Below, in pieces: positions 34,657 through 36,240 of a stretch of DNA of 64,000 nt. The position numbers are program-made. The stretch comes from Escherichia coli O157:H7. GTDB lineage: Bacteria; Pseudomonadota; Gammaproteobacteria; Enterobacterales; Enterobacteriaceae. The stretch lies in assembly GCF_013167455.1 (NCBI RefSeq), contig NZ_CP038328.1. The stretch is one strand, 5' to 3'. Position 1 is the first letter of the stretch, and each line of letters opens with the position of its first letter.

Positions 34657-36240
34657 CTATTAATTGGCTGATCGGACTTGTTCGGCGTACAAGTGTACGC
34701 TATTGTGCATTCGAAACTTACTCTATGTGCGACTTACAGAGGTATTGAATGAAACGTGCAGTGATTACTGGCCTGGGCATTGTTTCCAGCATCGGTAATA
34801 ACCAGCAGGAAGTCCTGGCATCTCTGCGTGAAGGACGTTCAGGGATCACTTTCTCTCAGGAGCTGAAGGATTCCGGCATGCGTAGCCACGTCTGGGGCAA
34901 CGTAAAACTGGATACCACTGGCCTCATTGACCGCAAAGTTGTGCGCTTTATGAGCGACGCATCCATTTATGCATTCCTTTCTATGGAGCAGGCAATCGCA
35001 GATGCGGGCCTCTCTCCGGAAGCTTACCAGAATAATCCGCGTGTTGGCCTGATTGCAGGTTCTGGCGGCGGTTCCCCGCGTTTCCAGGTGTTCGGCGCTG
35101 ACGCAATGCGCGGCCCGCGCGGCCTGAAAGCGGTTGGCCCGTATGTGGTCACCAAAGCGATGGCATCCGGCGTTTCTGCCTGCCTCGCCACGCCGTTTAA
35201 AATTCATGGCGTTAACTACTCCATCAGCTCCGCGTGTGCGACTTCCGCACACTGTATCGGTAACGCAGTAGAGCAGATCCAACTGGGCAAACAGGACATC
35301 GTGTTTGCTGGCGGCGGCGAAGAGCTGTGCTGGGAAATGGCTTGCGAATTCGACGCAATGGGTGCGCTGTCTACTAAATACAACGACACCCCGGAAAAAG
35401 CCTCCCGTACTTACGATGCTCACCGTGACGGTTTCGTTATCGCTGGCGGCGGCGGTATGGTGGTGGTTGAAGAGCTGGAACACGCGCTGGCGCGTGGTGC
35501 TCACATCTATGCTGAAATCGTTGGCTACGGCGCAACGTCTGATGGCGCAGACATGGTTGCTCCCTCTGGCGAAGGCGCAGTACGTTGTATGCAGATGGCG
35601 ATGCATGGCGTTGATACCCCAATCGATTACCTGAACTCCCACGGCACTTCGACTCCGGTTGGCGACGTGAAAGAGCTGGCAGCTATCCGTGAAGTGTTCG
35701 GCGATAAGAGCCCGGCGATTTCTGCAACCAAAGCCATGACCGGTCACTCTCTGGGCGCTGCTGGCGTACAGGAAGCTATCTACTCTCTGCTGATGCTGGA
35801 ACACGGCTTTATCGCCCCGAGCATCAACATTGAAGAGCTGGACGAGCAGGCTGCGGGTCTGAACATCGTGACCGAAACGACCGATCGCGAACTGACCACT
35901 GTTATGTCTAACAGCTTCGGCTTCGGCGGCACCAACGCCACGCTGGTAATGCGCAAGCTGAAAGATTAATTCGCAGTAGGCCGGAGTAGGTCGGATAAGA
36001 CGCGCCAGCGTCGCATCCGACGTTACGCGCCAATGCGGCCTCCGGCACTAACGCAAAAGGGAACCTGATGGTTCCCTTTTTCACATCATTGACAATCGCC
36101 GCCAGTTCCAGGCAAACTCCCCGCTTTGTCGATTTCCTTCTGAAAAGACGTACGCGTTAAATCCTGCCAACGCACTGTAACCCTGAAACCAGAGAGATGA
36201 GACGGGGATACTCCTCGCCTTGCGCTGCATTCTGGAGTAA

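What the first reader, a model, noticed from the sequence alone, without database searches (positions are those of the whole stretch)
34667..34700. Overlapping FadR and FabR operator sites upstream of fabB
A FadR-like half-site overlaps the FabR inverted repeat GCGTACA-AG-TGTACGC (34683-34698), 50-80 bp upstream of fabB. This matches the known dual control of fabB and supports the gene call. It is expected biology and is reported for completeness.
Basis: partly seen in the sequence, partly recalled or inferred. Interest (0 to 1): 0.15.

Follow-up and report, generated by a model that had tools for sequence, protein, structure and literature searches.

The report
Known FadR and FabR sites at fabB
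This is the well-known control region of the E. coli fatty-acid gene fabB, where an activator site (FadR) sits next to a repressor site (FabR) across the promoter; it is real, strongly conserved and ordinary.

Summary
The window is an E. coli O157-type chromosome, and the finding lies in the 158-bp mnmC–fabB intergenic region.

**Observation**
- The perfect inverted repeat GCGTACA-AG-TGTACGC is real but lies at 34685-34700, not 34683-34698.
- It is the core of the 18-bp FabR site GGCGTACAAGTGTACGCT (34684-34701).
- Just upstream is a complete 17-bp FadR site, GGCTGATCGGACTTGTT (34666-34682), not a half-site.
- One base (C34683) separates the two motifs, so they abut and do not overlap.

**Evidence**
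- The sequence is identical across both sites to published K-12 fabB gel-shift probes.
- A FadR matrix built without fabB ranks this site 3rd of 127,968 window positions.
- The FabR consensus matches nowhere else in the window (0.01 matches expected by chance).
- The 34668-34708 block is 94-100% identical at most positions (lowest 31%) across 76 Enterobacterales species, while the flanks drop to 10-60%.
- The 43-bp core shows no mismatch in 5,425 of 5,426 complete E. coli genomes.
- The FadR–FabR gap is 1 bp in 72 of 80 species.

**Inferred geometry**
- The FadR site covers a weak -35 (TTGTTC).
- The FabR site fills the 17-bp spacer and touches the -10 (TATTGT).

**Verdict:** This is already known; interest is low.

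The parts
34666..34682 (+). FadR operator, 17 bp, GGCTGATCGGACTTGTT (activator site, centred about -39 from the inferred transcription start)
   Evidence: The leave-fabB-out matrix gives score 17.2, rank 3 of 127,968 positions, p = 5.6e-7 per position. It is identical to the FadR-site part of the K-12 fabB EMSA probe. Positions 34668-34682 are 94-100% identical in 76 species.
34683..34683 (.). Single C between the FadR and FabR motifs; also the last base of the inferred -35 hexamer
   Evidence: The gap is 1 bp in 72 of 80 species. The column is 100% conserved. The same demarcation appears in the PMC4537474 primer table.
34684..34701 (.). FabR operator, 18 bp, GGCGTACAAGTGTACGCT; perfect arms at 34685-34691 and 34694-34700 around the centre AG
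   Evidence: The inverted repeat was found. It is the only match in the window to the E. coli FabR motif AGCGTACACGTGTTCGCT (quoted in PMC4273635) at up to 3 mismatches, with 0.01 expected. It is delimited as the FabR site in PMC4537474. A FabR-like 18-mer is present in 78 of 80 species.
34678..34683 (+). Inferred weak -35 hexamer TTGTTC (3 of 6 matches to TTGACA), inside the right half of the FadR site
   Evidence: This is inference from geometry: it lies 17 bp before the candidate -10. TTGTTC is present in 75 of 78 species, including those that lack the rest of the FadR site. The consensus scan did not call it because it falls below the scan's threshold.
34701..34706 (+). Inferred -10 hexamer TATTGT; its first T is the last base of the FabR 18-mer; transcription start inferred near 34713
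   Evidence: The TAnnnT pattern is kept in 76 of 78 species while the middle bases vary. The literature places E. coli FabR over the -10 and FadR over the -40 region at fabA (PMC3462791). The transcription start was not measured here.
34749..35969 (+). fabB coding sequence (beta-ketoacyl-ACP synthase I), the regulated gene
   Evidence: ORF listed. NCBIfam equivalog NF005935 scores 804.8 bits against a cut-off of 630, whereas the FabF model is below its cut-off. RefSeq annotates it as fabB.

Best explanation
This is the fabB promoter-operator of E. coli, a composite of two adjacent transcription-factor sites laid over a weak sigma-70 promoter.

**FadR.** FadR is a GntR-family dimer. It binds the 17-mer at 34666-34682, which covers the -35/-40 region, and activates transcription. 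Long-chain acyl-CoA releases FadR from DNA, which lowers fabB expression.

**FabR.** FabR is a TetR-family dimer. It binds the 18-bp palindrome at 34684-34701. That site fills the 17-bp spacer and touches the -10, so bound FabR blocks RNA polymerase. Repression is strengthened by unsaturated acyl thioesters. Together the two proteins tune the ratio of unsaturated to saturated fatty acids.

**Basis of each step**
- Shown here: presence of the sites, their exact coordinates, identity to the experimentally used K-12 sequence, statistical significance, deep conservation and fixed spacing.
- Taken from the literature: that the two proteins bind, and the direction of regulation.
- Inferred: the -35 and -10 hexamers and a transcription start near 34713.
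For: **Identity and context**
- The sequence is as read.
- The region is 100% identical to O157 chromosomes, lies between mnmC and fabB, and is present in 5,425 of 5,426 complete E. coli genomes.
- The published K-12 fabB probe TCTATTAAATGGCTGATCGGACTTGTTCGGCGTACAAGTGTACGCTATTGTGCATTC equals window 34656-34712 except at 34664. Wild-type FadR shifts this probe in EMSA.
- PMC4537474 marks GGCGTACAAGTGTACGCT as the FabR site, 1 bp after the FadR site.

**Matrix and consensus scans**
- With fabB held out, the FadR matrix ranks the site 3rd of 127,968 positions, behind only the two fadL training sites in the same window.
- The matrix also recovers the untrained fadI site at rank 4. The fabB site has p = 5.6e-7 per position.
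- The FabR consensus matches only here.

**Conservation**
- 72 of 80 species carry both motifs with a 1-bp gap. The composite 34-nt pattern is present in 66 of 80.
- Most columns in 34668-34708 are 94-100% identical, against 10-60% in the flanks.
- The 43-bp core shows no mismatch in 5,425 E. coli genomes, while the whole intergenic region is at least 99% identical in only 443.

**Promoter logic**
- TTGTTC, a 17-bp spacer and TAnnnT are conserved.
- The two Orbales lineages that lack the FadR half-site have a consensus TATAAT -10.

**Literature on regulation**
- FadR activates and FabR represses fabB.
- FabR lies over the -10 and FadR over the -40 region at fabA.
Against:
- The consensus promoter scan calls no promoter in 34450-34850. 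The candidate hexamers score 3/6 and 4/6, so the hexamers and the transcription start are inference.
- When fabA, whose FadR site is nearly identical, is also removed from the training set, the fabB site drops to rank 7 with p = 4.4e-5. fabA and fabB therefore form a subclass of FadR sites (CTGATC instead of CTGGTC).
- The fadR and fabR genes lie outside the window and were not checked in this genome.
- The primary papers (Campbell & Cronan 2001; Zhang et al. 2002; Zhu et al. 2009; Feng & Cronan 2009, 2011) are not held in the library. The binding claims therefore rest on later papers that cite them and reuse their probes.
Confidence: 0.95

Rival explanations
1. The inverted repeat and the FadR-like motif are chance matches with no regulatory role.
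For: Generic perfect 7+2+7 inverted repeats occur at the chance rate in this window: 5 found against 3.9 expected. The relaxed search GCGTACANNTGTACGC with up to 3 mismatches is not enriched: 2 found against 2.7 expected.
Against: - The exact motifs are 94-100% conserved across 76 species while the flanks diverge.
- The spacing between them is fixed in 72 of 80 species.
- The core shows no mismatch in 5,425 E. coli genomes.
- The specific consensus match is expected only 0.01 times per window.
- The sequence equals published binding probes.
Confidence: 0.01
2. The palindrome acts as an RNA or DNA hairpin (a terminator, attenuator or other structured element) and not as a protein operator.
For: It is a perfect 7-bp stem with a 2-nt loop. 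A second, imperfect inverted repeat (34676-34684 / 34686-34694) overlaps it.
Against: - A 2-nt loop is sterically poor for a hairpin.
- No T-run follows and the scan calls no terminator.
- Rfam gives no match at E <= 1.
- The element lies upstream of the inferred fabB transcription start, and mnmC is transcribed away from it.
- Substitutions at the two mirrored arm positions are mostly one-sided: 21 species changed one arm only and 4 changed both. That fits a degenerate protein half-site better than base-pair covariation.
- The second inverted repeat depends on the centre AG, which varies among species: AG 43, AC 26, TC 6, GG 3.
Confidence: 0.02
3. The sites are as described, but the mechanism is mutually exclusive binding. 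FabR would repress mainly by displacing FadR (anti-activation), not by blocking RNA polymerase, with the fixed 1-bp gap enforcing a steric clash.
For: The two motifs are separated by only 1 bp in 72 of 80 species, so the footprints of two dimers are likely to touch. Reviews report that FabR is the main regulator of fabB while FadR dominates at fabA.
Against: - The FabR site by itself occupies the whole spacer and the first base of the -10, which is enough for direct occlusion.
- The two Rosenbergiella and two Orbales species keep the FabR site, the TTGTTC and the -10 with no FadR site. FabR control therefore does not need FadR.
- The fixed gap is equally explained by both motifs being anchored to the -35 and -10 hexamers.
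Confidence: 0.15

Closest known systems
E. coli K-12 fabB promoter FadR/FabR operator (Campbell & Cronan 2001; Zhang, Marrakchi & Rock 2002; Feng & Cronan 2011, as cited in PMC4259882, PMC4537474 and PMC4804515)
   Same: The sequence is identical over both motifs and the -10. Across the 158-bp intergenic region the window differs from K-12 only at 34617 and 34664. The flanking genes are the same, mnmC and fabB.
   Different: There is no functional difference. The O157-type allele has T instead of A at 34664, 2 bp upstream of the FadR 17-mer, in a column that is only 49% conserved across species.
E. coli fabA promoter FadR/FabR operator (AACTGATCGGACTTGTT C AGCGTACACGTGTTAGCT)
   Same: The architecture is the same: a FadR 17-mer, then 1 bp (C), then an 18-bp FabR palindrome, then the -10. 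The FadR core CTGATCGGACTTGTT is identical. The literature places FadR at the -40 region and FabR over the -10.
   Different: The FabR 18-mers differ at 4 positions, so the fabA site does not match the window at up to 3 mismatches. The fabB palindrome is perfect over 7+7 and the fabA one is not. The literature reports FabR as dominant at fabB and FadR as dominant at fabA.
FadR repressor operators of the fad regulon (fadL, fadI/J, fadD, fadBA)
   Same: They share the same 17-bp motif family. Three such sites lie in this same window, at 15083-15099, 15107-15123 and 15790-15806, and the same matrix recovers them.
   Different: Those sites carry CTGGTC where fabB has CTGATC. According to the literature FadR represses at those sites, whereas the fabB site sits at about -40 and activates.
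FabR/DesT sites in other Gammaproteobacteria (Vibrio, Shewanella, Pseudomonas)
   Same: They share a TetR-family palindrome of the type AGCxTACAnnTGTxxGCT upstream of unsaturated-fatty-acid genes.
   Different: In Vibrio and Shewanella, fabB is reported to lack the FadR site. This matches the FabR-only arrangement seen here in Gilliamella, Schmidhempelia and Alkalimonas. The paired FadR+FabR arrangement at fabB appears to be an Enterobacterales feature.

Membership tests
FadR (GntR-family) operator | 17-bp sequence matching the FadR site model built from experimentally used sites | tested here: met
   The leave-fabB-out matrix gives score 17.2, rank 3 of 127,968 positions and p = 5.6e-7. The match is weaker but still in the top 7 when fabA is also left out.
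FadR (GntR-family) operator | Sequence shown to be bound by FadR protein | tested here: met
   The motif and 45 bp around it are identical to the K-12 fabB probe that wild-type FadR shifts in EMSA (PMC4259882; PMC4537474). Binding itself was not re-measured.
FadR (GntR-family) operator | Activator position at about -40 relative to the transcription start | tested here: inconclusive
   The site centre at 34674 lies about -39 from an inferred start near 34713, based on the conserved TTGTTC, 17-bp spacer and TAnnnT. The start was not measured, and the promoter scan called nothing.
FadR (GntR-family) operator | Cognate regulator gene fadR present in the genome | not tested
   fadR lies outside the 64-kb window. 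Its presence is expected from general knowledge of E. coli but was not checked.
FabR (TetR-family) operator | 18-bp palindrome matching the E. coli FabR motif AGCGTACACGTGTTCGCT | tested here: met
   There are 3 mismatches, it is the only match in the window, and 0.01 matches are expected by chance. The arms are a perfect 7+7.
FabR (TetR-family) operator | Identity with the site defined for K-12 fabB | tested here: met
   GGCGTACAAGTGTACGCT is delimited as the predicted FabR site in the fabB_ec probe of PMC4537474. K-12 DH10B has the same sequence.
FabR (TetR-family) operator | Phylogenetic footprint, the basis on which the site was originally discovered (McCue et al. 2001, as cited) | tested here: met
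   78 of 80 species carry a FabR-like 18-mer upstream of fabB. Columns 34684-34701 are mostly 100% identical.
FabR (TetR-family) operator | Direct FabR binding, and repression modulated by unsaturated acyl thioesters | not testable with these tools
   This comes from the literature only.
FabB, beta-ketoacyl-ACP synthase I (the regulated gene) | Score above the curated equivalog cut-off, and discrimination from FabF | tested here: met
   NF005935 scores 804.8 bits against a cut-off of 630. TIGR03150 (fabF) scores 381.5 against a cut-off of 493.75.

The most novel reading that the evidence does not exclude
The near-invariant 1-bp juxtaposition of the FadR and FabR motifs (72 of 80 species) might reflect a direct functional coupling of the two proteins, such as contact, cooperativity or obligatory competition on one composite operator. 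The simpler reading is that both motifs are merely anchored to the -35 and -10 hexamers. On the coupling reading, lineages that lost the FadR half (Rosenbergiella, Orbales) would have rewired fabB control, with a stronger -10 seen in Orbales only.
Probability: 0.12. Interest if true: 0.3.

Novelty: already known. Interest (0 to 1): 0.05.

Why it matters
It matters little for discovery. This is textbook regulation of unsaturated fatty-acid synthesis in E. coli.

Its practical value is as a positive control. It confirms the fabB gene call, identifies the window as an E. coli chromosome, and shows that simple motif reading can recover real operators. The cross-species data add a clear footprint of the composite operator across Enterobacterales, with a fixed 1-bp spacing. 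They also show that the FadR half is missing from a few lineages. Both points agree with published reports that fabB lacks a FadR site in Vibrio and Shewanella.

Tried and rejected
- **Promoter and terminator scan of 34450-34850.** Nothing was called. The candidate hexamers TTGTTC and TATTGT fall below the tool's threshold, which fits an activator-dependent promoter, so the promoter stays an inference.
- **Generic inverted-repeat enrichment.** There is none: 5 found against 3.9 expected. The relaxed palindrome search was also not enriched. The significance argument therefore rests on the specific motif, not on the palindrome as such.
- **Search with the fabA FabR site at up to 3 mismatches.** No match was found, because the fabA and fabB sites differ at 4 positions. 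The consensus motif worked instead.
- **Primary papers.** PMC99677, PMC4072462, PMC30389, PMC2787350 and PMC2785586 are not held. I used later papers that reproduce the probes and cite them.
- **Second inverted repeat ACTTGTTCG/CGTACAAGT (34676-34694).** I considered it as a possible link between the two sites. I rejected it because it depends on the centre dinucleotide, which is not conserved.
- **RNA-element reading.** Rfam gave no match.
- **Other high-scoring FadR-like hits (54064-54080, 8706-8722).** Both lie inside long ORFs and were treated as chance.

Full report
**Where the window comes from and what surrounds the finding**

The 801 bases around the finding are 100% identical to E. 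coli O157 chromosomes. The region is present in 5,425 of 5,426 complete E. coli genomes, always between mnmC and fabB. In the RefSeq annotation of an identical O157 strain, mnmC lies on the minus strand and ends its coding region at window 34590 (a GTG start). fabB occupies 34749-35969 on the plus strand. The mechanical ORF list extends mnmC to a TTG at 34650. The annotated start at 34590 leaves a 158-bp intergenic region, 34591-34748. The downstream protein is FabB: the NCBIfam equivalog for beta-ketoacyl-ACP synthase I scores 804.8 bits against a cut-off of 630, and the FabF model falls below its own cut-off.

**Checking the observation**

The sequence reads ...TTAATTGGCTGATCGGACTTGTTCGGCGTACAAGTGTACGCTATTGTGCATTC.... 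The perfect inverted repeat GCGTACA / TGTACGC, with 2 nt between the arms, is at 34685-34691 and 34694-34700.

Extended by one base on each side, it is the 18-mer GGCGTACAAGTGTACGCT (34684-34701). Immediately upstream is a full 17-bp FadR-type motif, GGCTGATCGGACTTGTT (34666-34682), not a half-site. One base, C34683, separates the two motifs, so they abut and do not overlap. The repeat ends 49 bp before the fabB ATG and the FadR motif begins 83 bp before it.

**Is it more than chance?**

A perfect 7+2+7 inverted repeat is not remarkable in itself. The window holds 5 against 3.9 expected, and a relaxed search for this palindrome with up to 3 mismatches is not enriched. The specific sequence is what carries the significance.

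- The E. coli FabR motif AGCGTACACGTGTTCGCT, as quoted from Feng & Cronan 2011 in PMC4273635, matches the window only at 34684-34701 with up to 3 mismatches. The chance expectation is 0.01.
- For FadR I built a matrix from six sites printed in the primer table of PMC4259882: fadL ×2, fadD ×2, fadBA and fabA. fabB was left out.
- The fabB site scores 17.2 and ranks 3rd of 127,968 positions on both strands. It is beaten only by the two fadL sites, which lie in this same window (15083-15099 and 15107-15123) and were in the training set.
- An untrained site 27 bp upstream of fadI (15790-15806) ranks 4th and serves as an independent positive control.
- The exact score distribution gives p = 5.6e-7 per position, or 0.07 expected per window.
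- If fabA is also removed, the fabB site falls to rank 7 with p = 4.4e-5. fabA and fabB share a CTGATC variant of the usual CTGGTC half-site.

**Identity with experimentally used DNA**

The K-12 fabB gel-shift probe in PMC4259882 is TCTATTAAATGGCTGATCGGACTTGTTCGGCGTACAAGTGTACGCTATTGTGCATTC. It equals window 34656-34712 except for A→T at 34664, outside both motifs. That paper reports that wild-type FadR shifts this probe and that fabB-lacZ falls 2 to 2.5-fold in a fadR mutant.

PMC4537474 prints the same probe with the predicted FabR site delimited as C*GGCGTACAAGTGTACGCT*A. This is the same 18-mer, one base after the FadR site. A direct alignment with K-12 DH10B shows only two differences in the whole intergenic region, at 34617 and 34664.

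**Conservation**

Using FabB as bait I fetched 80 loci, one per species. Most are Enterobacterales, with a few Orbales and an Alkalimonas.

- In 72 of the 80, both motifs are present upstream of fabB with exactly 1 bp between them.
- A composite 34-nt pattern spanning both is present in 66 of the 80.
- In an alignment of the window with 76 species, most positions in 34668-34708 are 94-100% identical. The exceptions are the degenerate FabR arm positions, the centre dinucleotide and the middle of the -10, where identity falls to 31-90%.
- The flanks fall to 10-60% identity.
- Within E. coli, the 43-bp core 34666-34708 shows no mismatch in 5,425 genomes, while the full 158-bp intergenic region is at least 99% identical in only 443. 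Megablast trims terminal mismatches, so the outermost few bases of the core are tested less strictly. The most divergent strain differs in the first two bases.

**How it most likely works**

- The hexamer TTGTTC (34678-34683) directly precedes the FabR 18-mer in 75 of 78 species.
- A TAnnnT hexamer (here TATTGT, 34701-34706) begins at the last base of the 18-mer in 76 of 78 species.
- The two hexamers are 17 bp apart, so I infer a weak sigma-70 promoter with a start near 34713. The hexamers match consensus at 3/6 and 4/6, which explains why the consensus scan called nothing.
- On this geometry FadR is centred near -39, overlapping the -35. FabR fills the spacer and touches the -10.
- This matches the published description for fabA, with FabR over the -10 and FadR over the -40 region (PMC3462791).
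- The literature states that FadR activates fabA and fabB and is released by long-chain acyl-CoA. It also states that FabR represses both genes, more strongly when bound to unsaturated acyl thioesters.
- The lineages without the FadR left half (the two Rosenbergiella species, Gilliamella, Schmidhempelia) keep TTGTTC and the FabR site. The two Orbales have a consensus TATAAT -10, which fits a promoter that no longer needs an activator.
- Two insect endosymbionts have lost the FabR palindrome. One has also lost the FadR site, and the other keeps only a remnant of its right half.

**Rivals**

- *Chance:* excluded by conservation and by the motif statistics.
- *Hairpin or terminator:* unlikely. 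The loop is 2 nt, no T-run follows, and no terminator or Rfam match was found. The element lies upstream of the inferred start. Changes at the mirrored arm positions are mostly one-sided, 21 species against 4, as expected for a degenerate protein half-site.
- *FabR displacing FadR versus blocking polymerase directly:* my tools cannot settle this. The FabR-only lineages show that FabR control does not require FadR.

**Comparison with what is known, and verdict**

This is the known fabB FadR/FabR operator. It is the same as in K-12 and a close sibling of the fabA operator, which has the same 17-mer, C, 18-mer layout. The corrections are a 2-nt coordinate offset, a full site instead of a half-site, and adjacency instead of overlap. 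Novelty: already known. Interest: low.

Noticed in passing
window 34622-34627 and 34645-34654 (minus strand): There are two further conserved blocks in the intergenic region: GCAAATTT (34647-34654, 84-100% identity) and ATCTTA (34622-34627). Read on the minus strand they give TTGCGC, a 17-bp spacer and TAAGAT, with the TAnnnT conservation pattern. This is a plausible divergent mnmC promoter. CTCGT at 34599-34603 (reverse complement ACGAG) looks like the mnmC ribosome-binding site before the GTG start at 34590.
   Followed up: partly
window 15083-15099, 15107-15123 (minus strand, upstream of fadL) and 15790-15806 (upstream of fadI): The window also carries fadL, yfcZ, fadI and fadJ. The two published fadL FadR sites and a strong FadR-type site 27 bp before fadI are the other top matrix hits. 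They served as internal positive controls.
   Followed up: yes
window 34617 and 34664: These are the only differences between this O157-type allele and K-12 in the 158-bp intergenic region: A against G at 34617 and T against A at 34664. The second lies 2 bp upstream of the FadR 17-mer, in a poorly conserved column.
   Followed up: partly
L043, L053 (Rosenbergiella), L067 (Schmidhempelia), L081 (Gilliamella), L080 (Alkalimonas); about 60-115 bp before fabB: These lineages keep the FabR palindrome but lack a FadR site. All but Alkalimonas also keep TTGTTC. The two Orbales have a consensus TATAAT -10. This agrees with published reports that fabB lacks a FadR site in Vibrio and Shewanella. Whether these genomes encode fadR was not checked.
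   Followed up: partly
L072 (Ca. Gullanella endobia), L073 (Heteropsylla symbiont), upstream of fabB: These reduced endosymbiont genomes keep fabB but have lost the FabR palindrome. L072 retains a remnant of the FadR right half (CAGACTTGTT), and L073 has no recognisable FadR site.
   Followed up: no
L064 (Edwardsiella ictaluri), upstream of fabB: This is the only locus that has both motifs with a 2-bp gap instead of 1 bp (ACTTGCCTC GGCG...). It also has a non-canonical -35 candidate, TGCCTC.
   Followed up: no
window 34676-34694: A second, imperfect inverted repeat ACTTGTTCG/CGTACAAGT links the right half of the FadR site to the left half of the FabR site. It depends on the centre dinucleotide AG, which varies among species, so it is probably incidental.
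   Followed up: yes
window 32584-34650: The mechanical ORF list extends mnmC by 20 codons to a TTG at 34650, which would cover part of the intergenic region. RefSeq starts mnmC at the GTG at 34590. The conserved ribosome-binding-site-like block supports the shorter form.
   Followed up: partly
window 1242-9662: A very long ORF of 2,806 aa lies on the plus strand. A FadR-like matrix hit at 8706-8722 falls inside it, and another at 54064-54080 falls inside a 297-aa ORF. Both hits are probably chance. The large ORF itself was not examined.
   Followed up: no
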